From contig JBBCGO010000001.1 in assembly GCA_037200925.1 (NCBI GenBank), positions 601,607 to 665,606 of the forward strand: a stretch of 64,000 nt of DNA. Reading direction: 5' to 3'. This document shows positions 44,096-57,328 of this stretch, in pieces; position 1 is the first letter of the stretch, and each line of letters starts with the position of its first letter. A program made the translations under genes and the position numbers. The notes under the pieces were generated by a model. It had not been told where the DNA came from. It saw nothing but the letters and a program-made list of their open reading frames with translations, and did no database searches. Source of the DNA: Candidatus Doudnabacteria bacterium. GTDB taxonomy: Bacteria > Patescibacteriota > Doudnabacteria > UBA920 > O2-02-FULL-48-8.

Positions 44096-44764
44096 TTAGA
44101 TGCTGCGGCTGATTGCCTCGGCCAGCGGCAGACCCCGAAGCGGATGGGTTTCCTTGCCGCCCTCGATTGAGGTGAACCGGTCAGCGATGAGCGGGATGTT
44201 CTCCGCGCTCGCCGCAGGGAATGGTCCGTGGCTTTTGCGCACTACGGTGAAATGCTCCTTGCCGCGGGTGACCGTCATCTTGTCGACGGCGAGAACGATG
44301 TTGCCGTCGGCCTGTCGGTTGAGCCGGATGACGAAGAAGAATCGAAGTCCTTCCCCTGCCTTATCAAGGCCGTGGAGCGGCATTGAGTAGACATAGTCGC
44401 CATTGTCGCGCTTGGCCTGCGTCTTGTCAAAATCCCAAAGCTTGCCTTTGCGATCATCGGTGACCATGGCAAGATTGGCATAGCGGCCAATCGGCAGCGG
44501 AGTGACCAGCTTTACCATCATGTGCCCGCCGTAACGAGTGAACACGTCGATGACATGGTGCGGGATGTCCACTGTTCCGTTCTGGTCGATCTCGGCCGGG
44601 ATGGCGAAGTGCTTGGTCGGATCTGGCCGCGTTTTTGTGCGCGCCCAGTTGACCTTGGCGTCCTTGCCGAGCAGACTCTCGAGCTCCCGGTAGGATGCCT
44701 GCGTGCTCTTGATCCGGAAACCGAACTCGAGCCTGGCATTTTCATCGAGCGCATACTGCTTCAC
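44096..44764 (-). CDS. Hypothetical protein, GC about 60% and compositionally atypical
   Basis: An AAGGAGGG RBS and a GTG start are present. No recognisable domain was found. Confidence 0.45.
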   Translation of the reverse strand: MKQYALDENARLEFGFRIKSTQASYRELESLLGKDAKVNWARTKTRPDPTKHFAIPAEIDQNGTVDIPHHVIDVFTRYGGHMMVKLVTPLPIGRYANLAMVTDDRKGKLWDFDKTQAKRDNGDYVYSMPLHGLDKAGEGLRFFFVIRLNRQADGNIVLAVDKMTVTRGKEHFTVVRKSHGPFPAASAENIPLIADRFTSIEGGKETHPLRGLPLAEAISRSI

Positions 44765-44957: not shown

Positions 44958-45029
44958 TAGTAATGACGTGGCCATAACAAAAACCCCGCTTTTAGAGCGG
45001 AGTGGCTGCTTTTTTTATCGCGAGATGCT

Positions 45030-46016
45030 TCACCAGATAATCAGAACGGCCATAACACCTATTCCAATGACAAGAGTGGATGTAATTATTGCATTAACCG
45101 GTGTTGCAAATAAACTTTTTGCGGACTGAACAAGCGTTTGGCCTGAGGTTGGCGAAGTTGTGGTGAGGGAAGGTACTGTTTCCGGGAGCGGAGAAGGAGT
45201 TGCCGGAATGGCAACCGGGGTTGGCGAAGGAGTAGCTGGCGGAGTCGGTGTCGGTGTGGAAGCGGGAGTAGGTGAAGGTGTGGCCTCCGGAGTCGTTGTT
45301 GGCGTGGTTGAAGTAGGATTAACCGATATGGGGCCTTCTGACGGTATGGCATCAGTGAATACCACAAGCCGTTGGGGGTACATACCGTTAACCTGATTCC
45401 AAATTCCTTCGCAGGTAATAAGATTTAAGTGCGCTAGGCCGTCGGTAGATGTGAAAACAGTCGTGGCATCCGCATCCCGGTCAAATGAATTGATGGCGCG
45501 GACCTGGAATGCAAGAGTTTCATTTTTATCATCCAGTATATATATTTTATCGCCGACCCGCAGCTTGTCCAAATTATAAAAAACCCATGGCACTCCGTTG
45601 CTGATGCCGAAGTGTCCGCCGATGACCGCGCTTCCCGTATCGCCGGGGTGTGGACCCAAGGCAAACCAGGCAACATTCACAGAACCGGCCGGCACATCCA
45701 TTCTCCCGTCAGAAGTGATGAGTGCGTCCTCAATTAAAGAGTCCACTCCTATAACCGGGATCTGAAGGCGGACCGGGAGTCCTGAAGGTATGCCTCCAGG
45801 ATCGCGGATGTCGGAATAAGCGACCTGGCCGCCCGATCCGGTTGTCGGGAATTTCGTTACCGGGAATTTCCAGCCGAAAAGCGCATCGGGTACGAGTGTC
45901 ACCGGCTTATTCTTGTTGAGGTGAGGCAACAACAGCAAATACCCGGCTCCCAATATTACTATGGAAACAATTACGATCAATATTCTTTTTAATCTTGATT
46001 TGGATTTTCTTTTCAT
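45030..46016 (-). CDS. Sortase-family transpeptidase with an N-terminal TM, a PT-rich linker and a C-terminal TM
   Basis: The catalytic TLxTC-type motif HLNLITCEGIW is present, with the conserved His region GGHFGI. Confidence 0.75.
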   Translation of the reverse strand: MKRKSKSRLKRILIVIVSIVILGAGYLLLLPHLNKNKPVTLVPDALFGWKFPVTKFPTTGSGGQVAYSDIRDPGGIPSGLPVRLQIPVIGVDSLIEDALITSDGRMDVPAGSVNVAWFALGPHPGDTGSAVIGGHFGISNGVPWVFYNLDKLRVGDKIYILDDKNETLAFQVRAINSFDRDADATTVFTSTDGLAHLNLITCEGIWNQVNGMYPQRLVVFTDAIPSEGPISVNPTSTTPTTTPEATPSPTPASTPTPTPPATPSPTPVAIPATPSPLPETVPSLTTTSPTSGQTLVQSAKSLFATPVNAIITSTLVIGIGVMAVLIIW

Positions 46017-46033
46017 TGTTTTTTTACCGTTCT

Positions 46034-46978
46034 TTAGGATTTGCGCTTATTTACCGGCTTCCCGAATTTTCTCCGGTAGACGAATCCGATAATAAGCAGC
46101 ACTAGAAGGCCGGCCAAGATCTCCCACACAATACTTTTGCTGTTATTGTTGACCGATCCTGTTTCCGGGAAATTGGGATTTGCCTGAGCAGTCGCGGCAG
46201 GCGAAGTGGCTACGTAGACGGTAAGAGCCACGTTATCTGAAGCCTGCAAACCGTTGGCAAAACCAGTTACTGTAGCTGTGTTCGTGGTTGTTTGCGTCAG
46301 GGTCGTGTCGCAGGTATAGATCCAGGCTTCACTAACATCCAGAAGATTGTTGCCGTTAGTGTCTCCCAGCTTGTTGGATATAGCGCTGCACTTATTGTCA
46401 GTAACGGTCACGTAGCTTAAAGGCACCACTCCCGGATTGGTGACCCTATAAGTATAGGTGATCTTGCCCCCTTCGGGAGGCAGGGATAAAGGGTAAGCAA
46501 CTTTGGTGATGTTGATAATGCTGACCAGCGGAGGCGGAGTCTTGGAACCGACAACGACGGTGGCATATGCCTGGTGCGTTGCGGTTATATCATTGGCAGT
46601 GCCAGTGGCTGTGGCAGTGCTTTGGGTAGTTTGGGAAACGGTTTTTGTACAGGTAAATCTCCATGTCTCGCTAAAGTCCAACTTTTTATCACCGTTGTCG
46701 TCGCCTTCTGAAAATTTAACAGGGCTGCAGTTGTCGTCAGAAACCTTTATGTCGGTCAAAGGCACTTCTTGAAGAAAATTCTTGACCGCATATTTGTATG
46801 TTACCTTGCCGGGTCCTTTCGGCAGTGCCAGCGGCTCCGGCACTTCGGTTATGCCGATCAAGGGAACATATAAAACGCTCGGGCTGGTTTGGGCAAGACT
46901 CGCCTTTGTGCCGTATCCAAATACCAATGCCGCGGCCAGTATCAGAACAAGGCCCGATGATTTAACTGTTTGTTTCAT
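46034..46978 (-). CDS. Surface protein with tandem DUF11-like repeat domains and a C-terminal cell-wall sorting signal (NFPETG + TM + RRKFGK)
   Basis: A signal peptide is present. The repeats read D-NCSPV...GDDNGD..LD..E.W.YTCT and GKITYTYRVTNPGVVPL. The C-terminus carries the tripartite sorting signal. Confidence 0.7.
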   Translation of the reverse strand: MKQTVKSSGLVLILAAALVFGYGTKASLAQTSPSVLYVPLIGITEVPEPLALPKGPGKVTYKYAVKNFLQEVPLTDIKVSDDNCSPVKFSEGDDNGDKKLDFSETWRFTCTKTVSQTTQSTATATGTANDITATHQAYATVVVGSKTPPPLVSIINITKVAYPLSLPPEGGKITYTYRVTNPGVVPLSYVTVTDNKCSAISNKLGDTNGNNLLDVSEAWIYTCDTTLTQTTTNTATVTGFANGLQASDNVALTVYVATSPAATAQANPNFPETGSVNNNSKSIVWEILAGLLVLLIIGFVYRRKFGKPVNKRKS

Positions 46979-46989
46979 ATTAAATTATT

Positions 46990-47769
46990 TTAATTACTTT
47001 TTTTATTTATAACCTTGATGGTCAGAGCGACATTATCAGTGGCCTGCAAACCGTTGGCAAAGGCGGTAACATGAGCCGTATCTGTTGTTGTTTGCGTCAG
47101 AGTTGCGGTGCATGTATAAACCCAGATTTCATTTATATCCAAAAGATTATTGCCGTTGGTATCTCCGAGTCTGCCGGACATATCGGTGCATTTATCGTCA
47201 GTGACCGTTACATTGCTTAAAGGCACTACGCCCGGATTGCCGACTCGGAAAGTATAGGTGATCTTGCCCCCTGCGATGGGCAAGGGTAAAGGATAGGCAA
47301 TTTTGGTGACGTTAACAATACTGACCAGCGGGGGCGGAGTCTTGGAGCCGACAACAACAGTGGCATAGGCTTTATGTGTTGCGGTTAGGTTATTGGCAAC
47401 TCCTGTTGCCGTCGCAGTGCTGAGAGTCGTTTGGGAAAGTTTTGCAGTGCAGGTATATCTCCATGTTTCATTATAATCAAGTCTGGCATTGCGATTGTCA
47501 TCGCCGGTTACAAACCTGACAGGGCTGCAGTTGTCATCGACAACCCTGACACCGGCCAAAGGCGCTTCTTTAACGAAACTTTTAACCGCATAACTGTAAG
47601 TGATGTTACCCGGCCCATTCGGCAGTGCCAGCGGTTTGGGCACAGATGTAATGCCGATCAAAGGGACATATAATGTTTGTGCCAGCACCGTCTTTAAAGC
47701 GTAAACAGATACGAATCCGATTAGCAGTATCAGCACAAAACTTACTATTGATTTAATCGTTTGTTTCAT
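46990..47769 (-). CDS. Tandem paralog of the DUF11-repeat surface protein, lacking the sorting signal
   Basis: About 70% identity to 46034..46978 over two repeat domains. The C-terminus ends KVINKKSN with no anchor. Confidence 0.65.
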   Translation of the reverse strand: MKQTIKSIVSFVLILLIGFVSVYALKTVLAQTLYVPLIGITSVPKPLALPNGPGNITYSYAVKSFVKEAPLAGVRVVDDNCSPVRFVTGDDNRNARLDYNETWRYTCTAKLSQTTLSTATATGVANNLTATHKAYATVVVGSKTPPPLVSIVNVTKIAYPLPLPIAGGKITYTFRVGNPGVVPLSNVTVTDDKCTDMSGRLGDTNGNNLLDINEIWVYTCTATLTQTTTDTAHVTAFANGLQATDNVALTIKVINKKSN

Positions 47770-47864
47770 GTTTGATTATTCCGATTCTTGCTTATAGCTT
47801 AACATTTTTCGGCAACTTTGTATTGTTCGTCTGTGGGTAAGTTGAATACTTTTTTCCGGGTTTT

Positions 47865-49721
47865 TTAATCCCCTAACTCCGAAATGAGTTTGGCGCGCGT
47901 CAACGGGCCGAAAACACCGACCTGCGGCAATCCTGTGTTTGCCTGGTATTTTTTGACTGCCGCTCTCGTTAGCTGACCGTAGAACCCGTAAGCAACCCCA
48001 GCCGGAATTCGCAGAAACCCTTTTTGCACCAGAACTGTTTGAAGCGCTTTGACATCCGCGCCGCGCGCGCCCGTGCCGAGCGATCTGCGGAAAATAGTAT
48101 TCGCTTCAGTTTTGTTCATTTGAATGGTTCCAGTATTGGGAAAACCGGGAACAACCGGGAGGGCGGACAGGCCGGGAACAGACACAATGACAGTAACAGA
48201 AGCCGAATCTGTCGCAGTGATCCCATTGGCTGTTCCGGTAGCCGTGGCCGTGTTCGTTGTGGTAGTTTTGAGATTTGTCCTGCAGGCGTAACTCCAAGTT
48301 TCCGAAACATCAAGCAAATTATTGCTATTGGCATCACCGGAAGGGTCTGAGAGCGGACTGCATGTATTATCAATTAGATTCACATTGCTCAAAGCGACGA
48401 TACCCGGATTGGTTACTGTATATGAGTAGGCAATCATTCCTCCTCCAACAGGCAGTGACATTGGACTTGGAATTTTTGTCACATGAATTAAGGGCGGGAT
48501 CACGACTCCTGTATTCGGCAGTCCCGGAGCGCCGACAACTACTGTTGCTGTTGCGGTATCAGTGGTGCTCAGCCCATTGGCGAATCCTGTCGCCGTGACT
48601 GTGTTCGTCTGGGTCGCTGTAAGTGTCGTTGTGCAGGTGTAGACCCAAGTTTCATTCGCATCGAGCGCGCCGTTGTTATTGGCATCGCCTGAAACCAAGG
48701 TTAACGGGCTGCAAGAATCATCCGTCAAAGTTACCGTGGTCATAGGGACTGTTCCGATATTGCGAACCGTATAGTTGTAGATTACAGGCCCTGGTCCTGC
48801 CGGCAGAGCGAGAGGGCTAGGTACTTTCACGACATCGATCATGGGCGGAACCGGGACCGGGCCGGAGCTTGCAGATGCAGGGACGCCGCCGGGAACGGGC
48901 ACCGGTCCGCTGAAAGAAGAAAAATTATCGATCAAGAATCCATTGCCCAAGGTCGCCGGGGCGGCTGTGCCAGCAACGCGGAACATTATTGAATCGACGG
49001 GGAAAGGTATGCCGCCGGCAAAATCGCGGAAATAATCTTCCCAGCTCGTTCCCGTGTGGATGAGTACGCCGTCCAGGTAGACGTTCACAATATCGTTTTC
49101 TGCCCCATCGATGAATTGCATCGTTATTTTGACCGTGTGCGGGACCGTTCTGTCGATACCGGTGGCGATGGGAGTGAGGACAAAATTCGATATTGAGTGC
49201 TGGTAATCCTCAAAATTAAGCTGGAGGCCTGCGGGAGTATCCTGCATCTGCAGCCAGCTCATTCGCATTGTGTCGCCGCGATCCGGGCTTGCGACCACGG
49301 ACAGGCCTGGCTGTTCGCTTCCCGGGACTGTTGAAGCAAAATCCCATTGCGCTTCAAAATACGGCTGGCGTGTTCCTCCGGAAAATGCGCTGCTGCCAGC
49401 CAATGTTTCCCCTGCCTCATCCGCCAAAGATTTGGAAAAAGTCTGGTCGTTAAAACTGCCGCAGGTAATGGCATTGGAAATGCGCAAGCTTTGGGTTCCG
49501 AAATTTGCAAAGCCCGCGGTATTGGGAACCACAGCTACGTCATACAAAGGACAGGTCGAAGACCCGTGTCCGCTGGTCCAGCCATCCTGGCCATTTAAGT
49601 CGCCAAGGGTGAAACCGTCAAAATTCGTACTATTAGTATCGGCAGCAGCTTTCTTCCCTCCCGCCAGGACCAGAATGGCCATAATAAAACCCAAAAAAAA
49701 GCGTTTGAATGTTTTCAACAT
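47865..49721 (-). CDS. Large secreted protein with an N-terminal beta-rich domain, DUF11-like repeats and a C-terminal peptidoglycan-binding domain (PG_binding_1)
   Basis: Internal LPNTG and FPNTG motifs are present. The C-terminal GADVKALQTVLVQKGF...AVKKYQANTGLPQVG region is a PG-binding fold. Confidence 0.65.
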   Translation of the reverse strand: MLKTFKRFFLGFIMAILVLAGGKKAAADTNSTNFDGFTLGDLNGQDGWTSGHGSSTCPLYDVAVVPNTAGFANFGTQSLRISNAITCGSFNDQTFSKSLADEAGETLAGSSAFSGGTRQPYFEAQWDFASTVPGSEQPGLSVVASPDRGDTMRMSWLQMQDTPAGLQLNFEDYQHSISNFVLTPIATGIDRTVPHTVKITMQFIDGAENDIVNVYLDGVLIHTGTSWEDYFRDFAGGIPFPVDSIMFRVAGTAAPATLGNGFLIDNFSSFSGPVPVPGGVPASASSGPVPVPPMIDVVKVPSPLALPAGPGPVIYNYTVRNIGTVPMTTVTLTDDSCSPLTLVSGDANNNGALDANETWVYTCTTTLTATQTNTVTATGFANGLSTTDTATATVVVGAPGLPNTGVVIPPLIHVTKIPSPMSLPVGGGMIAYSYTVTNPGIVALSNVNLIDNTCSPLSDPSGDANSNNLLDVSETWSYACRTNLKTTTTNTATATGTANGITATDSASVTVIVSVPGLSALPVVPGFPNTGTIQMNKTEANTIFRRSLGTGARGADVKALQTVLVQKGFLRIPAGVAYGFYGQLTRAAVKKYQANTGLPQVGVFGPLTRAKLISELGD

Positions 49722-49735
49722 AAAAAAATTAATGA

Positions 49736-50404
49736 TTAATTAGTAGTTTCTTTATCGGTAAATACGATGAGCCGTTTGGAGTAACTCTTCTGGGCTTCAT
49801 CCCAAACCCCTTCGCAGGTGATCAGGTTAAGGTGGGCTTTTCCGTCTGTGGAGCCAAAAATATCCGATGAGTCCGCGTCCGGTTCATAGTTTTTGCTGCC
49901 AACCACAACGAAAGTCATAATCGTTCCAGTGTCGTCTTCGATGTATAATTTATCACCGCTGCGCAATTTATATAAATTATCAAACACAGACTTGTCCCCG
50001 TTTTTCCAAATTCCATAATGGCCGTCAAGAACAGCGCTGCCTGTTTGCCCCGGCCGGGAACCGAGTTGGAACCATCCTACGTCTGAAGGCGCTTTCGGTA
50101 CATCCATCGCTCCGTCAGCAGCAAGGCCAAGATCTACAACTGCGGCATCAACATTTATTGCAGGGATCTTGAGACGAACCGGAAGTCCCGGGCCTGCTTC
50201 GGAATCGGGAGATTCAACTGACTGTCCGCTGATCAGATTTTGGGAAGATTGGCTTGCAACTGAGCCTTGCGGCGCGCCGAGAAAAAAAGTAACTATTAAA
50301 GAGATCGAAGAGAAGGCAACTCCCGCAATGCTGATATAAAGCCAAGACCGTTCAAATGAGATTTTCGATCGCATAGATTTTTTTCCGTCAAAAGCGGCGG
50401 GCAA
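49736..50404 (-). CDS. Sortase-family transpeptidase, paralog of 45030..46016
   Basis: The motifs HLNLITCEGVW and LDGHYGI are present, with an N-terminal TM. Confidence 0.75.
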   Translation of the reverse strand: MPAAFDGKKSMRSKISFERSWLYISIAGVAFSSISLIVTFFLGAPQGSVASQSSQNLISGQSVESPDSEAGPGLPVRLKIPAINVDAAVVDLGLAADGAMDVPKAPSDVGWFQLGSRPGQTGSAVLDGHYGIWKNGDKSVFDNLYKLRSGDKLYIEDDTGTIMTFVVVGSKNYEPDADSSDIFGSTDGKAHLNLITCEGVWDEAQKSYSKRLIVFTDKETTN

Positions 50405-50408
50405 AGTT

Positions 50409-50972
50409 TCATTTATTTACGGGCGGAGTTTCGCCGATTGCCTCGTCTGCGCTGTCGGCATCAGCGTCAGCCTTAGTTTTATGGATTCGGCCGTCAATAT
50501 GATTGGGAGGAGCATAGACTGTGTAAATTTTGAGGTCTTGCGTGCCGGTATTAGTGAAATTATGTTCCGTCCCCGGGACCACGACGACGACATCGCCGGG
50601 TTTGATGGGGAATTTTTTACCGTCCAGTTCGCCCTCGCCCGTACCCGAAAGGAAGAACAGCGTTTGTTCGGTGTACTTATGCGTCTCCGCTCCGACCTCG
50701 CCTCCTGGCGGAATGCTCATGATGACCAGCTGGCTGTTCGCACCGGTGAACAGAACGCGCCGGAAATAATCGTTAGCTTGCGTATCTTTGATGATGTTTG
50801 TATGGTAGCTCATTTTTTTTGGGGTCTGAACGGCGGCCGTAGGCGCTGGTTTCGTATATAATACCATGCCGCGCTGACCGAGTGTCAGAAAGAAAATAAT
50901 TATTGATAAGAAAGCAATTCCTGCGATGCCGATGTTCAACAATGGCCATTTTGACGAAATTTTTGGTCGCAT
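50409..50972 (-). CDS. Membrane-anchored cupin-domain protein
   Basis: The cupin motifs G(X)5HXH-like ETHKYTEQTLFFLSG and PGTEHNFTN are present. Confidence 0.55.
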   Translation of the reverse strand: MRPKISSKWPLLNIGIAGIAFLSIIIFFLTLGQRGMVLYTKPAPTAAVQTPKKMSYHTNIIKDTQANDYFRRVLFTGANSQLVIMSIPPGGEVGAETHKYTEQTLFFLSGTGEGELDGKKFPIKPGDVVVVVPGTEHNFTNTGTQDLKIYTVYAPPNHIDGRIHKTKADADADSADEAIGETPPVNK

Positions 50973-51101
50973 AGATCTTTTATGAGCTTCTAAGGTAAAG
51001 GCTCCGCTTGAGCGGAGCCTTTACAGTCTTTAGGCTAAGCGCATTTTGCTGACACTTAACATCTAGATTAAGTTGCGTTTTAAAACTACAGTGGACTATG
51101 A

Positions 51102-52664
51102 TTAAGCTGTCAGTTTTTTTCTCATCAAGTAGGATGAGAACAATCCGAGGAAGATCCCGGCTGTCGGAATGACGATGCCCCAAGGAGTGTTTTTCTTTTC
51201 CGGAGCAAATCCCGCTGCCGGCAAAGGCGGAGCTACGATCGCAGCCGGAGCCAGGCTCGGTACAACCACTGTAGCGGTAGCGACATCTGTTGCGGTAATG
51301 CCATTGGCAGTTCCGGTCGCTGTTGCCGTGTTCGTTGTGGTTGCGGTCAGGTTTGAGGTGCAGGTATACGTCCAGGTTTCCGTAGGATCAAGCAAATTAT
51401 CGGCATTGATGTCGCCGGTATGCCCTGAGATGCCGCTGCAGAAGTTATCGGTCAGAGTGACGTTGCTTAGAGCAACAGTGCCAGGATTGGTTAAATTGTA
51501 AGTGTATGTGACCAGTCCGCCGTTGGCTGAAGGAGTGACGAACATGTTTGGTGTTTTTACCACATGGATCAGGGGCGGAATAATTGCCGCGCCAACAATC
51601 ACTGTTGCGCTGGCAATATGGGTTGTGCTCTGGCCAAGATAATATCCGGTCGCTGTGACAGTGTTCGTGTGCGTGGCCGCAAGCGTCGTGGTGCAGGTGT
51701 AGACCCAGGTTTCATTCACATCCAGCGCGCCGTTGTTATTAGTGTCTCCTGACTGCAGAACTATCGGGCTGCAGGTATCACCAACCATGGTTACTGTGGT
51801 CATGGGCACGGTTCCAATATTAGTGGCAGTGTAAGTATAAGTTACGGGCCCTGGTCCTCCCGGCAGAGCCAAAGGATTTGGTACTTTCAAGACATCAATA
51901 AGCGGTGGAACAACAACTGGGCCATTGGAACCCGCTGGAGGCGTACCCGCGCATGTCGGTGGTACGTTAATGGTGTCGGTATCGGTCGTTACTGTTCCGC
52001 CAAATGCCAAAAGCCTTCCAGACCAGTTTGTAGTACTGCCGACAGTAATACCTGCAGCATCAATATCAGTTCCAATCATTGTAGTATTAGCACTAAGCGT
52101 CGTGGCCTGGGTCGGTGTCCAAAAAACATCGCATGGTGAAGCTCCGGCGAGTGCGACAATCGCTCCGGGCGATGAAGTAAGAGCGCCAACAGCTCTGAAG
52201 ATGTAAGTTCCAGCACCTGTAAGAGTAATTGTAGCCGATATATTCATTGCCCCTCCACTGCAATATATTCCAGGAGCATAAACTCCAATCGTACCATGAA
52301 TAACGTCAGTTCCAAGATCTATTGGACCTCCCCACGTGGTTGTGCACGGTGATTGGGCAGCCAAAGCAGCTAAGGCTGCACCTTGATCCGTACCTGCCGT
52401 GGTATATGGAGGGGTATTGCCATAACGTGCCTGAGCTCCCGCAGGATGGACGGGCGCTCCTGTAGTAAATCCGATATCGCCATTGACTGTGGTTCCTGCG
52501 GTTGTGTTAGTAAAGGTACTGGCAAGAATAGCATAGGATGTCGCAGCGCCAAGGTTAGGCGTAGTTGCTGCGATTGCGGCCATTGGCTCGGCAAAACCCA
52601 GGGCCAAGAGCGTTAAACAGGCTACAAATAGTGTTAAAATAGAGTTTTTATTGAATATTTTCAT
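51102..52664 (-). CDS. Surface protein with an N-terminal DUF3494 (ice-binding-like) domain, DUF11-like repeats and a C-terminal sorting signal (LPAAG + TM + MRKK)
   Basis: The DUF3494 signature SYAILASTFTNTTAGTTVNGDIG is present. The DUF11 repeats resemble those in neighbouring genes. The C-terminus reads PPLPAAGFAPEKKNTPWGIVIPTAGIFLGLFSSYLMRKKLTA. Confidence 0.7.
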   Translation of the reverse strand: MKIFNKNSILTLFVACLTLLALGFAEPMAAIAATTPNLGAATSYAILASTFTNTTAGTTVNGDIGFTTGAPVHPAGAQARYGNTPPYTTAGTDQGAALAALAAQSPCTTTWGGPIDLGTDVIHGTIGVYAPGIYCSGGAMNISATITLTGAGTYIFRAVGALTSSPGAIVALAGASPCDVFWTPTQATTLSANTTMIGTDIDAAGITVGSTTNWSGRLLAFGGTVTTDTDTINVPPTCAGTPPAGSNGPVVVPPLIDVLKVPNPLALPGGPGPVTYTYTATNIGTVPMTTVTMVGDTCSPIVLQSGDTNNNGALDVNETWVYTCTTTLAATHTNTVTATGYYLGQSTTHIASATVIVGAAIIPPLIHVVKTPNMFVTPSANGGLVTYTYNLTNPGTVALSNVTLTDNFCSGISGHTGDINADNLLDPTETWTYTCTSNLTATTTNTATATGTANGITATDVATATVVVPSLAPAAIVAPPLPAAGFAPEKKNTPWGIVIPTAGIFLGLFSSYLMRKKLTA

Positions 52665-52933: not shown

Positions 52934-53341
52934 TTACGTTGTTGGTGTTTTTTCTTCAGGCTGATTGTTTTTTGCAAGAAACCTTTTTACTTTCTCGACA
53001 ATATCGCCTACAGCCTGGTTTGATTTGATCAGATATTCGTCTGATCCCAGTCCAAGGCCTTTTTTGATGTCTTCGTCTTCGCCAAGTAGCGTGAGTATTA
53101 CCACAGGGATGGCTTTCGTGTCAGGAGAATTTTTTAATTCCTCGAGCACTTCCAGGCCCGGCTTTTTTGGAAGGATGAGATCAAGCATCACTACATCGGG
53201 GCGCTTGGACTTCACCAGTTCCAGACCGGCAATACCATCAAATGCCTGAAAGACCTCAAATCCGGCATCTCTGAATTCCGTAGAAAGCACTTTGGACAGA
53301 ATTTCATCGTCTTCAATCAATGCTATTTTTTTTGCGCTCAT
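52934..53341 (-). CDS. Stand-alone response-regulator receiver protein, paralog of 39763..40155
   Basis: The receiver motifs are present (EDDE, D in MLDLILP, conserved K). The gene lies immediately downstream of the histidine kinase. Confidence 0.8.
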   Translation of the reverse strand: MSAKKIALIEDDEILSKVLSTEFRDAGFEVFQAFDGIAGLELVKSKRPDVVMLDLILPKKPGLEVLEELKNSPDTKAIPVVILTLLGEDEDIKKGLGLGSDEYLIKSNQAVGDIVEKVKRFLAKNNQPEEKTPTT

Positions 53342-53369: not shown

Positions 53370-54995
53370 TTATTTAAGATTTTTAACATATGCCAATCCG
53401 CTTCCTCCGGCTTTGGACGGCGATATCAAAGGCAGTTCAACAAAGAAAGTCGTGCCTTTTTCTTCCGGCAGTGTGGGCGATTCAACCCAGATCTTTCCTC
53501 CCAGCAGTTTTGCCGCTTCGCGGGCGATGTAAAGACCCAATCCCGTGCCGTCGGTTTTTGTAACAACTGCATTGCTCGCGCGCATGAACTTTTCAAACAA
53601 ATGTTCCTGATCCTTCTTGGGGATCCCGATGCCGGAGTCTTTGACCTGGAGGATCACCGAATTTTCCTTCTTCTCCAGCAAGATATCGATCTTTCCGGCG
53701 GGCGGAGTATAATCTATTGCATTGGTAACGAGATTCTGCAGGATGTATTCGAGCAGGTTCATATCCGTAACAATCGTAATTTCTTCCGGGTGCGGCGTGA
53801 ATTTAAGCGACAATTTTTTCTTTTCGGAAAGCAGGCGGTATTCGCCAATGTGTTTTTCGATAAAACCGACCAACTCCAGGGATTCAGCATGTACACCGAC
53901 GCTCCCGTTCTCGATCCGGGAAGTATCCAGCAACAATTTTACCAGTGCATTGGAGCGTTGAACCGAATAAAGAATATCATTGAGATATTCTTTACCTTTG
54001 TCCGTTAATTTTTCTTTTTTCATGATCAGCTCGATCAGCCACCTTATGCCCGTAAGCGGTGTGCGCAATTGGTGTGATGCGAGCGAAACGAATTCAGTTT
54101 TGGCGCGGTCGATCTCTTTTTCGCGGGTTATATCCCGGAAGATGTTTATTGCTCCTATGACTTTGCCGCCAAGGACTATGGGAGACACGGTTCTTGATAC
54201 AGGGAATTTTGTCCCGTCCTTTCTTATGTAATAAAAGGAAGTTGTTATAGTTGTGGTCGTGGTTGCGGCCGTTGTCAGAGCGGCATGTATAGCCCCTTCC
54301 TCAGCTGACAGCGGATTGCCCTTCTCGTCCTCGCGAATCAGGATCTCATACCATTGCTTGCCGATCGATTCGGAGCTGTTATAGCCGAGCATCTGTTCGG
54401 CCGTGTGGTTCATAAAAATGATCTTCCCTTTCTCATCAAGCGCTATCAGCCCGTCGCCGACCGAAAGCAAGATCGCCTCTTCTTTGGCTTTTGCCTGCGC
54501 TAGCTTTTCCGCCTCAGCCTGAAGATCTTCGTAGACATTCCGCGCGGCTATCTTTGCGTTTTCCAGATCTTTCTCCACCCGTTTCCTGGTAGAGATATTT
54601 TGAAATGAAGCTGCGCCTATAATACCTACCGCTATGAGAAGAGAGGAGGTGGTCAGCCCGTCCAGTGGAGTTGCATATAAACTTTTTGCAGAAACAGCTG
54701 CTGCTTGAGGGACCTGAATTGATCCTGTTAACGGGAATTTAACCGTTTGGGATAAAGCGGTCTGGGGTAAACTTTGGTTGGATGGAGGCAGCAATAGAAA
54801 ATAGATCTCAGCTCCAAGGATCACAAAAAAAATTAAGATCAGAATCAAATTGAATAAATATGCAGTTTTTTTTTGAGTCTTCTGTTGCCTGCTTTTTTTG
54901 GTTAAAAAGAAAAAAATAAAAAGTGCTAACAATGCACCTGATAAGATGCTCCATACTATGATCTTTATATCGGAATTCACCGTAATAGAGTTCAT
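53370..54995 (-). CDS. Membrane sensor histidine kinase (2 TM, coiled-coil, PAS, HisKA, HATPase)
   Basis: The H-box SHQLRTP is present, with DSGIGIP and GTGLGL. The PAS domain has the same Thr-rich insert as the kinase at 37351. Confidence 0.85.
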   Translation of the reverse strand: MNSITVNSDIKIIVWSILSGALLALFIFFFLTKKSRQQKTQKKTAYLFNLILILIFFVILGAEIYFLLLPPSNQSLPQTALSQTVKFPLTGSIQVPQAAAVSAKSLYATPLDGLTTSSLLIAVGIIGAASFQNISTRKRVEKDLENAKIAARNVYEDLQAEAEKLAQAKAKEEAILLSVGDGLIALDEKGKIIFMNHTAEQMLGYNSSESIGKQWYEILIREDEKGNPLSAEEGAIHAALTTAATTTTTITTSFYYIRKDGTKFPVSRTVSPIVLGGKVIGAINIFRDITREKEIDRAKTEFVSLASHQLRTPLTGIRWLIELIMKKEKLTDKGKEYLNDILYSVQRSNALVKLLLDTSRIENGSVGVHAESLELVGFIEKHIGEYRLLSEKKKLSLKFTPHPEEITIVTDMNLLEYILQNLVTNAIDYTPPAGKIDILLEKKENSVILQVKDSGIGIPKKDQEHLFEKFMRASNAVVTKTDGTGLGLYIAREAAKLLGGKIWVESPTLPEEKGTTFFVELPLISPSKAGGSGLAYVKNLK

Positions 54996-54998
54996 TTG

Positions 54999-55817
54999 TC
55001 AGCGATTTTTTTGATTACCATCGCCGTTTTTGATTTGTTTTTTCAGGTCATCGATTTCTTTTTTGAGCTCCACCATTTTCAGTTCCCTGCCGATCATGCT
55101 TTTATTCACTGATTCCAATTCTGTTACTCTGCTGAGCAGTTCTTTTGCGCGCTCGGCGATCTTGACCTCGAGGCTTTTGGTATATTCGGCTAATTTACCC
55201 TCAAGCCCTTTTCTGGTGGTGATGTCTTCCATGGCCAGGATGATCAGTTGCACAGTGTCTATTTGTTTGGCATTGAGCAGTATAGTTTTTTCACCGATGG
55301 TTTCGAAAGTATGCGTGACGCCGTAATCCCTGACCATTTTTTTCTCCGGCAGAATTTCTTCCAGCAGGCTCTTCAGTTCAGGAATATTCCACTGGCCGTT
55401 CCCCAGTTTATAAAGAAGAATATTTTCCGTTTCTTGGGGCGAAACCTGAAAGGTTTCATAGAAAGTCGGATTCGCTTCAACCACGCGAAGATCAGCGTCA
55501 AGAATTAAGAACGACTCTCTGGCAACGTCTACCAAAGTTTTCATATAATGCAAAGCTTCCTGTTGTGATTCTTTGATCTCCTGCTTTGATTCTGTTAACT
55601 GCGCTTCTGATTCTTTTATTTTCTCTTCCGATTCTGTTATATTCTGCTTTGATTCTGTTAACTGCGCTTCTGATTTTTTTATTTTTTGTTTCGATTCTTT
55701 TACATCCTGCTTTGATTCTCTAATGTCCTCTTCGGATTCTCTTACTCCCAGTTTTGATTCTTTTAACTCCGCTTCCGATTCTTTTAATGTATCTGATTTT
55801 TTTGTGTCGTCGTTCAT
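54999..55817 (-). CDS. PAS-like domain protein with N-terminal ESK-rich coiled-coil tandem repeats, upstream partner of the histidine kinase and response regulator
   Basis: Repeats of KESEAQLTESKQ are followed by a PAS-like core and a C-terminal coiled-coil. The underlying DNA repeat spans 55560-55800. Confidence 0.55.
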   Translation of the reverse strand: MNDDTKKSDTLKESEAELKESKLGVRESEEDIRESKQDVKESKQKIKKSEAQLTESKQNITESEEKIKESEAQLTESKQEIKESQQEALHYMKTLVDVARESFLILDADLRVVEANPTFYETFQVSPQETENILLYKLGNGQWNIPELKSLLEEILPEKKMVRDYGVTHTFETIGEKTILLNAKQIDTVQLIILAMEDITTRKGLEGKLAEYTKSLEVKIAERAKELLSRVTELESVNKSMIGRELKMVELKKEIDDLKKQIKNGDGNQKNR

Positions 55818-56035: not shown

Positions 56036-56905
56036 TCAGTACTTTTTTTTGTCCTTGTCGTGATCTTTGTCTTTGTGTTCGTCCTTGTGGTCTTTATCGT
56101 GATCCTTATGATCCTTGTCCTTGTGGTGATCACGATCGTGGTCCTTGTCGTGGTGATGATGGTGGTGCTTCTTGGGCGGCACTTCGCACTTTTCCACCGG
56201 CGGGAAAGTGGAACCCTTTGAGCAGACGGCGACATGGTTCGTGTCCATCGTCACCGCTGCCGTGAGGGCTATCACACTGCCGGAAACATTGACGCCGGTC
56301 GTCAGGGTGACGCTCGCCAGTGCCAGAATGTTTCCCGCAAATTGCGTGCCGGTTCCGAGGGTAGCGGAGCTTCCGATCTGCCAAAAGACATTTCCGCAAT
56401 TCGTTGCATCCATCATGACAACGTGCGAGTTGCTTGCGGTTGTCAGCGTGCTTGCGATCTGGAAAACCCAGGGACCGGACCCGGTCAGAACGAGCGTTCC
56501 GGTCAGCTGCGCCGAGGAGTTGAAACAGTACACTCCCGGCGGAAGCGTGAGCGTGCCCAGATCTTGGCCGGTCAGATTATTGACGCTTGGGCAAGGCAAC
56601 GCTTTTAGCGCGGCGTACGCCAGGTGGGCATCTGCTTGAGCTGTTGCCGCGCGCATGTTGCCCGCGTTTATTGTTCCTCCGACCACGACTCCCGGCGGGA
56701 AGCCGGTGATCGAGGTGCCGGGACTGACCCCGAGATCACCGGTGACGACGCTCGCGCCGGTGTTGGTGACCGTCGTGGCGCCAAGCACGGCGAAGTTCTG
56801 CGCCGAACCGAGCGACTGGGCGGATGCCGCGGAAGCGAAGAGAACAATCGCAGCGAGAGGGACAGACACAAACCACCGCATCTTCTTTCGCATACAATCC
56901 TCCAT
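56036..56905 (-). CDS. Secreted DUF3494 (ice-binding-like) domain protein with a C-terminal His/Asp/Lys-rich tail, GC about 62%
   Basis: A signal peptide is present. The DUF3494 signature is FAVLGATTVTNTGASVVTGDLGVSPGTSITGF. The tail reads HHHHHHDKDHDRDHHKDKDHKDHDKDHKDEHKDKDHDKDKKKY. Confidence 0.65.
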   Translation of the reverse strand: MEDCMRKKMRWFVSVPLAAIVLFASAASAQSLGSAQNFAVLGATTVTNTGASVVTGDLGVSPGTSITGFPPGVVVGGTINAGNMRAATAQADAHLAYAALKALPCPSVNNLTGQDLGTLTLPPGVYCFNSSAQLTGTLVLTGSGPWVFQIASTLTTASNSHVVMMDATNCGNVFWQIGSSATLGTGTQFAGNILALASVTLTTGVNVSGSVIALTAAVTMDTNHVAVCSKGSTFPPVEKCEVPPKKHHHHHHDKDHDRDHHKDKDHKDHDKDHKDEHKDKDHDKDKKKY

Positions 56906-57079: not shown

Positions 57080-57165
57080 GCACGGGTGGCGAAATGGTAC
57101 ACGCACTACCTTGAGGTGGTAGCGCCCGCAAGGGCTTGGAGGTTCGAGTCCTCTCCCGTGCACCA
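57080..57165 (+). tRNA. tRNA-Leu (GAG)
   Basis: The acceptor is GCACGGG/CCCGTGC and the anticodon loop is TTGAGGT. It has a long variable arm and ends ACCA. Confidence 0.85.
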
Positions 57166-57166
57166 C

Positions 57167-57241
57167 GGGCGGTTAGCTCAGTGGTAGAGCGTCTCGTTTA
57201 CACCGAGAAGGCCGTAGGTCCGATCCCTACACCGCCCACCA
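57167..57241 (+). tRNA. tRNA-Val (TAC)
   Basis: The acceptor is GGGCGGT/ACCGCCC, the D-arm is GCTCAGTGGTAGAGC and the anticodon loop is TTTACAC. It ends ACCA. Confidence 0.85.
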
Positions 57242-57273
57242 ATAAGATTTGGTATAATAGGATTTCTAAGACC

Positions 57274-57325: not shown

Positions 57326-57328
57326 GAC

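What the first reader, a model, noticed from the sequence alone, without database searches (positions are those of the whole stretch)
45030..52664. High-GC cell-surface island with two sortases and DUF11-repeat substrates carrying non-canonical sorting signals (NFPETG, LPAAG) and ice-binding-like (DUF3494) heads
Seen in sequence: there are two paralogous sortase genes (45030..46016 and 49736..50404) with HLNLITCEG(I/V)W. Between them and around them lie four secreted proteins built from DUF11-like repeats, with motifs D-NCSP...GD-NGN-LD-E-W-YTC and GKITYT-RV-NPG.

The protein at 46034..46978 ends NFPETG, a TM, then RRKFGK. The protein at 51102..52664 ends PPLPAAG, a TM, then MRKK. These are classic tripartite sorting signals, but with unusual pentapeptides in place of LPXTG.

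The 618-aa protein at 47865..49721 has internal LPNTG and FPNTG motifs. It anchors instead via a C-terminal PG_binding_1 domain.

The protein at 51102..52664 and a separate gene at 56036..56905 carry DUF3494 ice-binding-like domains (…TNTGA-VV-GDLGVSPG…).

GC is about 55-62%, against about 40-48% in the core genes. This suggests the island was acquired.

The sorting motifs inferred from sequence would define the specificity of these two sortases.
Basis: partly seen in the sequence, partly recalled or inferred. Interest (0 to 1): 0.75.

Follow-up and report, generated by a model that had tools for sequence, protein, structure and literature searches.

The report
Two-sortase surface-protein locus of a CPR bacterium
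This is a cell-surface gene cluster shared by many ultra-small Patescibacteria (CPR), not an acquired island: two different sortases each sit beside their own class of stalked surface protein, and a neighbouring sensor kinase appears to be built from pieces of one sortase and its substrate.

Summary
The GC claim is wrong. The island is 49.7% GC against 47.0% for the rest of the window.

Sortase 2 is 100% identical to a Candidatus Doudnabacteria protein. The same gene order recurs across Patescibacteria, so this is a lineage-typical locus, not an import.

It holds two cassettes:
- An ice-binding-like/CLIPPER_2 protein ending LPx[T/A/S]G + TM + RKK lies just upstream of the short sortase, SRT2. 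In 58 such neighbours position 1 is L 54 and F 4, and LPAAG occurs twice.
- A conserved ~300-aa two-CLIPPER_2 protein ending [F/L]Px[T/V/A]G lies just upstream of the long sortase, SRT1. Position 1 is F 65 and L 35, and FPETG is the commonest form. SRT1 is the next gene or is fused in 39 of 44 loci.

So the "non-canonical" motifs are family norms. Both also fall within known natural LPXTG variation.

New points:
- SRT1 carries a conserved FPx[T/V]G in its own stalk.
- Protein C belongs to a recurrent class with [L/F]PxTG directly followed by PG_binding_1 instead of a membrane anchor.
- The adjacent histidine kinase has a sensor that is a chimera of substrate tail and catalytic-domain-less SRT1.

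All function is inferred.

The parts
51102..52664 (-). Protein D, the type I substrate. It has a signal peptide, an ice-binding-like (DUF3494) head at aa 47-233, two CLIPPER_2 (DUF7507) repeats, and the sorting signal LPAAG-FAPEKKNTPWG-TM-MRKK.
   Evidence: Pfam hits are PF11999 at 65 bits and PF24346 at 46.5 bits. Homologues of the head domain lie next to SRT2-type sortases in 64 of 81 sources. The tail matches the family consensus 'LPNTG[IFL]xP[DE]....PWN IIIPAGIF..LFSFYLARKK'.
51210..51224 (-). LPAAG pentapeptide of protein D (aa 481-485).
   Evidence: Read from the translation. The same pentapeptide occurs in L015. Position 4 is Ala in 8 of 58 SRT2-adjacent substrates.
50409..50972 (-). 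Membrane-anchored cupin lying between protein D and SRT2.
   Evidence: Pfam Cupin_2 at 62 bits. Close homologues sit beside the sortase in 9 further genome loci and in many metagenome loci. Its role is unknown.
49736..50404 (-). SRT2, the short sortase: an N-terminal TM segment followed by the catalytic domain. His129, Cys197 and Arg211 are invariant.
   Evidence: PF04203 at 84 bits. NCBIfam class_F_sortase at 117 bits against a cutoff of 166. It is 100% identical to a protein NCBI names 'class F sortase [Candidatus Doudnabacteria bacterium]'.
47865..49721 (-). Protein C, the type III substrate. It has a signal peptide, an unassigned ~260-aa N-terminal domain, two CLIPPER_2/CLIPPER repeats with LPNTG in the linker between them, then FPNTG directly followed by a C-terminal PG_binding_1 domain.
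   Evidence: Pfam hits are PF24346, PF01345 and PF01471. The same layout is found in L079/L092, L102 (LPDTG at 387 and FPNTG at 515), L104, L112 and L131.
48129..48143 (-). FPNTG (aa 527-531) immediately upstream of PG_binding_1 (aa 553-612, nt 47886-48065). A second motif, LPNTG (aa 401-405), lies at nt 48507-48521.
46990..47769 (-). Protein B, a paralogue of A with two CLIPPER_2 repeats. It ends ..IKVINKKSN with no sorting signal.
   Evidence: Only 11 nt separate its stop from the start of A, so there is no room for a frameshifted signal remnant.
46034..46978 (-). Protein A, the type II substrate: a signal peptide, two CLIPPER_2 beta-sandwich domains, and the sorting signal FPETG-SVNNNSKSIVWE-TM-RRKFGKPVNKRKS.
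   Evidence: The best 120 homologues are 59-69% identical and carry a conserved signal. The AF2 model has pLDDT 82.5 with two beta-sandwich domains. An SRT1-type sortase is the next gene in 37 of 44 loci and is fused in 2 more.
46157..46171 (-). FPETG pentapeptide of protein A (aa 270-274).
   Evidence: Pro271 and Gly274 are nearly invariant. FPETG is the commonest variant, in 18 of 115 homologues.
45030..46016 (-). SRT1, the long sortase. It has an N-terminal TM segment, a conserved stalk 'LFGWKFPVTKFPTTG', the catalytic domain (His135, Cys202, Arg216), a Pro/Thr-rich linker with LPETV, and the C-terminal 'SAKSLFATPVN'+TM.
   Evidence: PF04203 at 66 bits and class_F_sortase at 102 of 166 bits. 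It belongs to a distinct family; the best 120 homologues are 48-78% identical.
45837..45851 (-). FPTTG motif (aa 56-60) in the SRT1 stalk, between the N-terminal TM segment and the catalytic domain.
   Evidence: [F]Px[TVA]G is present in 98 of 107 SRT1 homologues against 5.8 expected from shuffles, and in 2 of 111 SRT2 homologues. Phe56, Pro57 and Gly60 are nearly invariant.
53370..54995 (-). Histidine kinase. Its N-terminal 135 aa (nt 54591-54995) form a chimera: an A-type post-cleavage tail (TM1), then the SRT1 N-terminal TM and stalk including FPLTG (aa 87-91, nt 54723-54737), then the SRT1 C-terminal 'SAKSLYATPLDG'+TM. PAS, HisKA and HATPase domains follow.
   Evidence: Local alignment scores are 69, 78 and 100 against shuffle means of 24-33, with 0 of 500 shuffles reaching them. 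The same sensor lies next to sortase loci in L016, L081, L083, L102 and L131.
52934..53341 (-). Receiver-only response regulator downstream of the kinase.
   Evidence: PF00072 at 71 bits. The same arrangement is seen in L016, L081 and L084.
54999..55817 (-). Coiled-coil/PAS protein upstream of the kinase.
   Evidence: Weak PAS hits only. An orthologous gene sits in the same position in L016 at 15459-16121.
44983..45003 (-). Terminator-like hairpin just after the SRT1 stop codon. It is a possible end of the D-cupin-SRT2-C-B-A-SRT1 transcription unit.
   Evidence: Consensus scan only. A promoter-like site lies at 52918-52890, upstream of D.

Best explanation
The region is a conserved Patescibacteria (CPR) cell-envelope locus. 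It builds covalently wall-anchored, stalked surface proteins using two dedicated sortase-substrate cassettes.

Cassette 1:
- Protein D has an ice-binding-like beta-solenoid head on CLIPPER_2 Ig-like stalk domains.
- It is exported by Sec and held in the membrane by its C-terminal TM segment and basic tail.
- The short sortase SRT2 cleaves it within LPAAG (family motif LPx[T/A/S]G).
- The acyl-enzyme is resolved onto the peptidoglycan precursor.

Cassette 2:
- The small two-CLIPPER_2 protein A is processed in the same way at FPETG (family motif [F/L]Px[T/V/A]G) by the long sortase SRT1.
- SRT1 is anchored by TM segments at both ends.
- Its stalk carries a copy of the substrate-like FPx[T/V]G motif. 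This is proposed to act as a cis pseudo-substrate or an autoprocessing site.

Protein C:
- It is a third substrate type, in which a PG_binding_1 domain rather than a membrane anchor retains the precursor next to the wall.
- The sortase then cleaves at FPNTG.

The adjacent kinase and response regulator:
- The kinase sensor is a copy of the substrate's post-cleavage tail plus a catalytic-domain-less SRT1.
- The pair is proposed to monitor flux through SRT1.

What is shown: gene content, motif conservation, synteny, gene fusions and catalytic residues. What is inferred: cleavage, wall attachment, which sortase acts on which substrate, and the regulatory role.
For: Enzymes:
- Both proteins have the Sortase domain.
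- His, Cys and Arg are invariant.
- Class F is the best NCBIfam class.

Lineage:
- Sortase 2 is 100% identical to a Doudnabacteria MAG protein.
- All 80 GTDB loci are Patescibacteria-type MAGs.

Cassette 1:
- 67 SRT2 loci have an IBP/CLIPPER_2 gene within 900 nt upstream.
- 58 of these carry [LF]Px[TAS]G + TM + basic tail. Position 1 is L 54, F 4. Position 4 is T 47, A 8, S 3, V 0.

Cassette 2:
- 115 of 120 protein A homologues carry xPxxG + TM + basic tail. Position 1 is F 65, L 35. Position 4 is T 74, V 21, A 9.
- An SRT1-type sortase is the next gene in 37 of 44 evaluable A-centred loci.
- It is fused in frame in L104 and L130, and also in L016.
- The two signal types differ at position 1 (Fisher p = 9e-14) and in position-4 Val (p = 1e-4). 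These p-values are indicative only, because the sequences are related.

SRT1 stalk motif:
- It is present in 98 of 107 homologues against 5.8 expected, and in 2 of 111 SRT2 homologues.

Protein C architecture:
- It recurs in 6 loci.

Kinase sensor:
- Chimera alignments are far above shuffle scores.
- Only 7 representative clusters exist among 1.84 billion proteins, and FP[LS]TG is kept in 6 of the 7.
- The sensor lies next to the sortase locus in 6 loci.

Stalk domains:
- DUF7507 and DUF11 are the CLIPPER_2 and CLIPPER isopeptide stalk domains of fibrillar adhesins (PMC12617251).
- The K/D/N triad is present in 5 of 8 repeats.

Precedent for a two-component system that monitors sortase processing: S. 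gordonii SGO_1180 (cited in PMC11326707).
Against: - No biochemical data exist for any CPR sortase.
- The pairing of sortase with substrate rests on adjacency, fusion and motif statistics only.
- Both sortases score below the curated class F cutoff.
- AF2 gives the SRT1 stalk (aa 36-77) pLDDT below 50, so there is no structural support for a docked pseudo-substrate.
- There is no covariation between the SRT1 stalk motif and the neighbouring A-type motif. Position 4 is identical in only 15 of 28 pairs.
- Protein B has no sorting signal, and its role is unexplained.
- The C-terminal LPxT[A/G] motif, found in 77 of 111 SRT1 homologues, is degenerate (LPETV) in the window copy.
- The chimeric-sensor kinase is rare. 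Two of its loci (L082, L084) show no sortase in their short flanks.
Confidence: 0.75

Rival explanations
1. Horizontally acquired high-GC surface island. On this view the sortases and substrates arrived together from a higher-GC donor.
For: The island lies at the upper end of the window's GC range, at 49.7% against a mean of 47.6% with sd 1.2% for windows of equal size. Nearby single genes are truly GC-rich: 56036-56905 at 58% with GC3 70%, and 44096-44764 at 59%.
Against: Gene GC is 46-53%, not 55-62%. The gene order D-(cupin)-SRT2-(C)-A-SRT1 is shared by many divergent Patescibacteria. All close homologues are from CPR or metagenome sources. No mobility genes, flanking repeats or tRNA junctions were seen at the borders in the ORF list and tRNA scan, but these were not searched for specifically.
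Confidence: 0.05
2. Cassette 2 is a sortase-assembled pilus. SRT1 would act like a class C pilin polymerase, joining A subunits Thr-to-Lys into a fibre. SRT2, as the housekeeping enzyme, would attach the fibre to the wall.
For: SRT1 has class C-like topology, with an N-terminal TM or signal segment plus a C-terminal TM segment and basic residues. The top Foldseek hits of its model are class C sortases (E about 2e-9). Protein A is a small, very conserved protein of two Ig-like CnaA-type domains with an isopeptide triad in domain 2. Dedicated sortase-substrate adjacency is typical of pilus islands.
Against: Class A and class E structures match almost as well (E about 1e-8). NCBIfam class C scores 28 bits against a cutoff of 160. 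The fold search with A returns only generic tandem Ig/FnIII proteins and no Gram-positive pilins. No pilin motif or E-box was recognised. No DP[FWY] lid is present.
Confidence: 0.15
3. The two sortases are redundant or overlapping housekeeping enzymes. Either would process all [L/F]Px[T/A/V/S]G proteins, so the adjacency reflects co-regulation and not specificity.
For: Both signal types share the xPxxG core. L and F each occur at position 1 in both classes. The sortases are 41% identical with identical catalytic-loop sequence HLNLITCEG. Many CPR loci carry only the SRT2 type.
Against: Position-1 and position-4 preferences differ strongly between the classes, and so do the spacer and TM signatures ('PWN-IIIPAGIF' against 'K.IVWE'). 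SRT1 is linked to A in 39 of 44 loci, including fusions. The SRT1 stalk motif is always F at position 1 with T/V/A at position 4, like the A-type signals.
Confidence: 0.2
4. The kinase's N-terminal resemblance to A and SRT1 is an evolutionary relic of a rearrangement that merely supplies membrane anchors. It would have no role in sensing the sortase pathway.
For: The architecture is rare, with 7 representative clusters. In L016, and in the short 204-206-aa representatives P0362 and P0365, the sensor is a separate short ORF. L082 and L084 show no sortase nearby.
Against: The chimera is old. DNA similarity to A and SRT1 in the window is only 74 bp at 70%. Even so, the loop FP[LS]TG and the 'SLY.TP.DG' motifs are retained in 6 of 7 representatives. 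The gene lies beside the sortase locus in six loci.
Confidence: 0.3

Closest known systems
Class F sortases (e.g. Cutibacterium/Propionibacterium acnes SrtF, an LPXTG housekeeping sortase; Di Girolamo et al. 2019, as cited in PMC8225981)
   Same: Both window sortases score best against the class F NCBIfam model. They have the His-Cys-Arg triad, an N-terminal membrane anchor and LPXTG-type substrates. NCBI names SRT2 'class F sortase'.
   Different: Both score below the curated class F cutoff (102 and 117 bits against 166). They come from Patescibacteria, not Actinobacteria. SRT1 adds a conserved FPxTG stalk, an optional PG_binding_1 domain and a C-terminal 'SLYATPLDG'+TM module, none of which I know to be described for class F.
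Class C (pilus-specific) sortases with adjacent pilin genes in Gram-positive pilus islands
   Same: SRT1 has a C-terminal TM segment with basic residues, a dedicated neighbouring substrate built of Ig-like isopeptide-type domains, and closest structural matches to SrtC structures. A conserved N-terminal element lies ahead of the barrel, where class C enzymes carry their lid.
   Different: There is no DP[FWY] lid. The class C HMM score is negligible. The substrate shows no recognisable pilin motif and no similarity to solved pilins.
Variant LPXTG signals: FPXTG in Streptococcus agalactiae (PMC8225981) and LPXAG/LPXSG in staphylococci (PMC7137321)
   Same: These are the same pentapeptide variants as FPETG and LPAAG, followed by a TM segment and a basic tail.
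   Different: In Firmicutes these are rare exceptions among LPXTG proteins. Here F at position 1 is the majority state of a whole conserved family, and Val is tolerated at position 4.
CLIPPER/CLIPPER_2 (DUF11/DUF7507) stalk domains of fibrillar adhesins (Costa et al. 2025, PMC12617251)
   Same: Pfam hits are above threshold. The domains are tandem CnaA-like beta-sandwiches between an adhesive head and a sorting signal. The Lys/Asp/Asn triad is conserved in 5 of 8 repeats, and each repeat has a Cys pair.
   Different: There are only two repeats per protein. Three of the eight repeats lack the triad. Each repeat carries an EF-hand-like 'GDxNGNxxLDxxE' loop between the cysteines; a Ca2+-binding role is my inference from the pattern.
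S. gordonii SGO_1180/1181 two-component system, which senses the membrane remnant (C-pep) of sortase A substrates (Hall et al. 2019, as cited in PMC11326707)
   Same: The concept is the same: a kinase linked to sortase processing, with the membrane-embedded remnant of the sorting signal as the cue.
   Different: Here the kinase itself contains a copy of the substrate's post-cleavage tail and of the sortase's TM segment, stalk and tail, including the FPxTG motif. No homology to SGO_1180 was tested.
Pam pili of CPR bacteria (bioRxiv 10.64898/2026.03.03.709456)
   Same: They are CPR-specific surface structures made of Ig-like domains. The RbmA-like PamR has two beta-sandwich domains and a C-terminal TM segment, and RbmA is among the top fold matches of protein A.
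   Different: Pam pili assemble by donor-strand exchange with chaperones, and no sortase lies in that operon. No sequence relationship was tested.

Membership tests
Sortase superfamily (PF04203) | Sortase domain above the Pfam gathering score | tested here: met
   66.0 and 83.6 bits against a cutoff of 26.6.
Sortase superfamily (PF04203) | Catalytic His, Cys (TLxTC-type loop) and Arg conserved | tested here: met
   His129, Cys197 and Arg211 (SRT2) and His135, Cys202 and Arg216 (SRT1) are invariant in alignments of 27 and 66 sequences. The loop reads NLITCEG.
Class F sortase (NCBIfam NF033748) | Score at or above the curated cutoff of 166 bits | tested here: not met
   102.0 bits (SRT1) and 117.4 bits (SRT2). 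Class F is the best class by about 70 bits or more, but both are below the cutoff. NCBI nevertheless names SRT2 'class F sortase'.
Class F sortase (NCBIfam NF033748) | Phylogenetic placement within the class F clade alongside reference sortases of classes A to F | not tested
   No reference set was available offline. PDB sequence searches gave only weak matches to class C and class A enzymes.
Class C (pilin-polymerising) sortase | Class C HMM match and a DP[FWY] lid | tested here: not met
   Class C scores 27.7 and 27.5 bits against a cutoff of 160. The conserved pre-barrel element is 'IRDPGGIP', with no aromatic residue after DP.
Class C (pilin-polymerising) sortase | C-terminal TM anchor and an adjacent pilin-like substrate | tested here: inconclusive
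   SRT1 has the C-terminal TM segment and a dedicated Ig-domain neighbour. Protein A shows no pilin fold match and no pilin motif.
LPXTG-type cell-wall sorting signal | Pentapeptide, then a hydrophobic segment, then a basic tail at the C-terminus | tested here: met
   A has FPETG, a 12-aa spacer, a TM segment and RRKFGK.. D has LPAAG, a 10-aa spacer, a TM segment and MRKK. Both are conserved across their families. B lacks the signal. C has the pentapeptide but PG_binding_1 in place of the TM segment and tail.
LPXTG-type cell-wall sorting signal | Cleavage between positions 4 and 5 and amide linkage to peptidoglycan | not testable with these tools
   This needs biochemistry or mass spectrometry.
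CLIPPER_2 / DUF7507 (PF24346) isopeptide stalk domain | Pfam hit above the gathering score | tested here: met
   38.5 to 47.6 bits against a cutoff of 27 in A, B, C and D.
CLIPPER_2 / DUF7507 (PF24346) isopeptide stalk domain | Lys-Asp-Asn isopeptide triad | tested here: inconclusive
   By repeat alignment the triad is present in A2, B2, C1, C2 and D2. It is absent from A1 and B1 (no Lys) and from D1 (no Asn). Bond formation was not tested.
Ice-binding-like / DUF3494 (PF11999) | Pfam hit above the gathering score | tested here: met
   D scores 65 bits and 56036-56905 scores 187.6 bits, against a cutoff of 28.7. Ice binding itself was not tested and is not implied.
Horizontally acquired genomic island | Atypical composition and patchy distribution relative to the host lineage | tested here: not met
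   GC is 49.7% against 47.0%. Synteny is conserved across Patescibacteria.

The most novel reading that the evidence does not exclude
CPR bacteria may have a self-referential sortase circuit.

- The substrate-specific sortase SRT1 carries its own recognition motif (FPx[T/V]G) in its stalk, acting as a pseudo-substrate gate or an autoprocessing site.
- A third substrate class uses a peptidoglycan-binding domain instead of a membrane anchor as the retention module of the sorting signal.
- A histidine kinase, built from the substrate's post-cleavage tail plus a catalytic-domain-less copy of SRT1, acts as a decoy substrate or partner that reports sortase activity to the cell.
Probability: 0.3. Interest if true: 0.8.

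Novelty: new variant of a known kind. Interest (0 to 1): 0.6.

Why it matters
Patescibacteria make up a large share of bacterial diversity, and the cultivated ones live attached to other microbes. Apart from type IV pili and the recently described Pam pili, their surface molecules are almost unknown.

This locus points to three things:
- A widespread class of candidate adhesins, with ice-binding-like heads on isopeptide-type stalks.
- The enzymes that fix those proteins to the wall.
- Testable recognition motifs for two sortase families, which have not been characterised in the literature searched here.

If the stalk motif and the chimeric kinase work as proposed, they would be new ways of gating and monitoring a sortase. 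The FPx[T/V]G and LPx[T/A/S]G enzymes might also serve as orthogonal tools for protein ligation.

Tried and rejected
- GC/HGT reading: rejected by direct composition statistics and by conserved synteny.
- Docked pseudo-substrate in the SRT1 model: AF2 gave pLDDT below 50 for aa 36-77, so there is no support either way. The tool returns no coordinates for contact analysis.
- Closest solved sortase by sequence: only weak class C and class A matches.
- Closest solved sortase by fold: class C ranks first, but class A and class E are nearly equal. This does not decide the class.
- Pilin homology of protein A: Foldseek against the PDB returned generic tandem Ig/FnIII proteins such as RbmA, integrin and transglutaminase, and no Gram-positive pilins.
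- N-terminal domain of protein C (aa 1-279): there was no Pfam or NCBIfam hit there, no PDB sequence hit and no homologue in the 80 genome loci.
- Recent duplication as the origin of the kinase sensor: only 74 bp at 70% DNA identity to SRT1, so the chimera is old.
- Covariation between the SRT1 stalk motif and the neighbouring substrate motif: none found, with position 4 identical in 15 of 28 pairs.
- Relation to Pam pili: no sortase lies in that operon.
- Other sorting-signal proteins in the 64-kb window: none beyond A and D.
- Whole-proteome scan: not possible from the window alone.

Full report
**1. Observation**

- The two sortases (45030-46016, 328 aa; 49736-50404, 222 aa) contain AHLNLITCEG[I/V]W.
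- Both hit Pfam Sortase at 66 and 84 bits.
- They are 41% identical to each other.

Four proteins have hydrophobic N-termini and DUF7507/DUF11 repeats. I call them A (46034-46978), B (46990-47769), C (47865-49721) and D (51102-52664).
- A ends NFPETG + spacer + TM + RRKFGK...
- D ends PPLPAAG + spacer + TM + MRKK.
- C has LPNTG (aa 401), FPNTG (aa 527) and PG_binding_1 (aa 553-612).
- D and the separate gene 56036-56905 hit Pfam Ice_binding (65 and 188 bits).

The composition claim fails.
- The island is 49.7% GC, with genes at 46-53%. The rest of the window is 47.0%.
- Only 56036-56905 (58%, GC3 70%), 44096-44764 (59%) and 41726-42508 (57%) are GC-rich.

**2. Organism and distribution**

- SRT2 is 100% identical to an NCBI protein named 'class F sortase [Candidatus Doudnabacteria bacterium]', on a 964-kb contig.
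- Named homologues of both sortases come from Patescibacteria (CPR) MAGs.
- A sortase family is already known to occur in more than half of CPR genomes (PMC6744442).
- I found no paper in the searchable library that analyses CPR sortase substrates, motifs or loci.

**3. Two cassettes**

I fetched 80 species-representative loci around SRT2 relatives and annotated their ORFs with profiles made from the window proteins.
- In 67 loci an ice-binding-like and/or CLIPPER_2 protein lies within 900 nt upstream of the SRT2-type sortase.
- 58 of these end in [L/F]Px[T/A/S]G + TM + basic tail.
- LPNTG occurs 29 times and LPAAG twice. Position 1 is L 54 and F 4. Position 4 is T 47, A 8, S 3, V 0.
- Their tails share the signature 'LPNTG[IFL]xP[DE]....PWN-IIIPAGIF..LFSFYLARKK'. 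Protein D matches it residue for residue.
- A membrane-anchored cupin, like 50409-50972, often sits between substrate and sortase.

Protein A belongs to a different and very conserved family. The best 120 homologues are 59-69% identical.
- 115 of the 120 carry an xPxxG motif + spacer 'NPxLK.IVWE' + TM + a long basic tail.
- Position 1 is F 65 and L 35. Position 4 is T 74, V 21, A 9. FPETG is the commonest pentapeptide, with 18 cases.

In 80 metagenome loci centred on A homologues, 44 were evaluable.
- The next gene downstream was an SRT1-type sortase in 37.
- A and SRT1 were fused in frame in 2, L104 and L130.
- A third fusion is L016 10541-12712.

SRT1 relatives form their own family. The best 120 homologues are 48-78% identical.

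The window order D-cupin-SRT2-C-B-A-SRT1 is also seen in L016, L029, L073, L077, L079, L083, L086, L102, L112, L131, L152 and others.

I conclude that there are two sortase-substrate pairs. The pairing is inferred from adjacency, from the fusions, and from the difference in motif statistics. That difference gives Fisher p = 9e-14 for F against L, which is indicative only because the sequences are related.

**4. The 'non-canonical' motifs**

Both motifs are the norm, or a regular minority state, within their families.
- FPXTG occurs in S. agalactiae (PMC8225981).
- LPXAG and LPXSG occur in staphylococci (PMC7137321).
- The new element is quantitative: F is the majority residue at position 1, and Val is tolerated at position 4, in the A-type class.

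**5.

(a) A conserved stalk lies between the N-terminal TM segment and the catalytic domain: 'LFGWKFPvaKFPx[T/V]G[S/P]..AYSxIRDPGGIPqGLPVRLkIP'.
- The FPx[TVA]G motif is present in 98 of 107 homologues, against 5.8 expected from shuffles. It is present in only 2 of 111 SRT2 homologues.
- Gly48, Trp49 and Pro52 are invariant. Phe47, Phe56, Pro57 and Gly60 are at least 90% conserved.
- The motif has the same F and T/V/A preferences as the A-type sorting signal.

(b) About half of the homologues insert PG_binding_1 after the catalytic domain.

(c) 77 of 111 homologues have LPx[T/A][A/G] about 34 aa before the C-terminal TM segment, against 17.6 expected. The window copy has only LPETV.

(d) Nearly all homologues end 'SLYATPlDGlITS..TM..KIIRR'.

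AF2 models the catalytic barrel adequately, but it gives the stalk pLDDT below 50. A docked pseudo-substrate is therefore neither supported nor excluded. Foldseek ranks class C sortases first (E about 2e-9), with classes A and E close behind.

**6. Protein C**

Protein C is not a one-off.
- CLIPPER_2 repeats followed by [L/F]P[D/N]TG and then directly by a C-terminal PG_binding_1 domain occur in L079/L092, L102, L104, L112 and L131.
- L102 has LPDTG at 387 and FPNTG at 515, mirroring the window's motifs at 401 and 527.
- I infer a third type of sorting signal, in which a wall-binding domain replaces the TM segment and charged tail as the retention module. This is untested.
- The N-terminal domain of C remains unassigned.

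**7. Stalk and head domains**

DUF11 and DUF7507 were renamed CLIPPER and CLIPPER_2. They are CnaA-like domains with an intramolecular isopeptide bond, and they form the stalks of fibrillar adhesins (PMC12617251).
- Aligning the eight window repeats shows the Lys/Asp/Asn triad in A2, B2, C1, C2 and D2, but not in A1, B1 or D1.
- Every repeat has a Cys pair flanking an EF-hand-like 'GDxNGNxxLDxxE' loop. A Ca2+-binding role is my inference from the pattern.
- The AF2 model of A (pLDDT 82.5) shows two beta-sandwich domains. The sorting motif lies in a disordered linker.
- Fold matches are generic tandem Ig/FnIII proteins, not pilins.
- The ice-binding-like head is the conserved passenger of cassette 1. 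I treat it as a candidate adhesin head. No ice-related function is implied.

**8. The neighbouring two-component system**

The kinase at 53370-54995 has PAS, HisKA and HATPase domains. They follow a three-TM sensor whose parts align as follows:
- to the post-cleavage tail of A, score 69;
- to the N-terminal TM segment and stalk of SRT1, including KFPLTGS against KFPTTGS, score 78;
- to the C-terminal 'SAKSL[F/Y]ATP..'+TM of SRT1, score 100.

Shuffle means are 24-33, and 0 of 500 shuffles reach these scores. The sensor is in effect 'A tail + SRT1 minus its catalytic domain'.

- DNA similarity to A and SRT1 in the window is negligible, so the chimera is ancient.
- An exhaustive search of 1.84 billion representative proteins found only 7 relatives. 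Six of them keep FP[LS]TG in the loop and 'S[LV]Y.[TS]P.DG' before TM3.
- One relative, P0363, even retains a signal peptide and an LPDAG motif ahead of TM1.
- The sensor gene lies beside the sortase locus in the window, L016, L081, L083, L102 and L131.
- A two-component system that monitors sortase processing through the membrane remnant of the sorting signal is known in S. gordonii (cited in PMC11326707). That makes a monitoring role plausible. It remains a hypothesis.

**9. Mechanism**

The most likely mechanism is Sec export, retention of the precursor, cleavage by sortase inside the pentapeptide, and transfer to the peptidoglycan precursor. SRT2 would serve the LPx[T/A/S]G proteins with ice-binding-like heads. 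SRT1 would serve the [F/L]Px[T/V/A]G two-domain proteins.

My confidence by statement:
- Sortase-dependent surface-protein locus: high.
- Specific sortase-substrate pairing: moderate.
- Stalk gate, PG-binding retention module and kinase circuit: low to moderate.

The pilus rival (SRT1 acting like a class C polymerase) is not excluded.

**10. Classification**

- Superfamily membership is met.
- Class F is the nearest class, but both enzymes are below the curated cutoff.
- Class C criteria are not met by HMM or by lid.

Overall this is a new variant of a known kind. Its HGT reading and its 'unusual motif' reading are not.

Noticed in passing
window 53370-54995 (-), sensor aa 1-135 = nt 54591-54995: The N-terminal three-TM sensor of the histidine kinase is a chimera. 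It combines the A-type post-cleavage sorting-signal tail, the SRT1 N-terminal TM segment and stalk (with FPLTG in the outer loop), and the SRT1 C-terminal 'SAKSLYATPLDG'+TM. The same sensor sits beside sortase loci in five other contigs, and only 7 representative clusters exist among 1.84 billion proteins.
   Followed up: yes
L016 10541-12712; L104 9005-11131; L130 9896-11551: These are natural in-frame fusions of the A-type substrate, with its complete sorting signal, to the SRT1-type sortase. They give Rosetta-stone evidence for the functional pairing.
   Followed up: partly
window 56036-56905 (-): This is a separate DUF3494 protein (Pfam 188 bits) with a signal peptide and a His/Asp/Lys-rich C-terminal tail (HHHHHHDKDHDRDHH...) but no sorting signal. 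Its composition is very atypical (58% GC, GC3 70%). Terminator-like hairpins lie just downstream of its stop (56011-55985, strong) and just upstream of its start (56981-56963, weaker), and a cluster of four tRNA genes lies beyond at 57080-57607. It is a better candidate for horizontal acquisition than the sortase island.
   Followed up: partly
window 44096-44764 (-) and 41726-42508 (-): Two more GC-rich genes (59% and 57%) lie just outside the island. The first has no Pfam or NCBIfam hit. The second is an alpha/beta hydrolase.
   Followed up: no
window 50409-50972 (-): A cupin with an N-terminal TM segment lies between substrate D and SRT2. Close homologues occupy the same position in many other CPR sortase loci (L004, L048, L062, L066, L086, L102, L152 and others). 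Its role in the pathway is unknown.
   Followed up: partly
L010 6718-8028, L016 6778-8031, L070 6689-8065, L073 3788-5062 and others: A further conserved family lies upstream of the LPxTG-anchored ice-binding-like proteins. It has an ice-binding-like head joined directly to a C-terminal PG_binding_1 domain, with no LPxTG. These look like non-covalently wall-bound versions of the same head.
   Followed up: no
SRT1 homologues P0241-P0360; window 45033-45134 (-): The C-terminal module 'SLYATPlDGlITS..TM..KIIRR' is nearly universal in SRT1-type sortases. It is preceded in 77 of 111 homologues by LPx[T/A][A/G], so the sortase itself carries something like a sorting signal. The window copy has only LPETV. 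The meaning is unexplained.
   Followed up: partly
window 46990-47769 (-): Protein B is a paralogue of A (67% identical in the A3 alignment) that stops right after the second CLIPPER_2 domain and has no sorting signal. No remnant of a signal could fit in the 11-nt gap before A. Its fate, whether secreted or non-covalently bound, is unknown.
   Followed up: no
window 46034-46978, 46990-47769, 47865-49721, 51102-52664: Every CLIPPER_2 repeat carries a Cys pair bracketing an EF-hand-like loop, GD[DT]NG[DN]xxLDxxE[TA]W. This suggests disulfide-stapled Ca2+-binding loops. The suggestion comes from the sequence pattern only.
   Followed up: no
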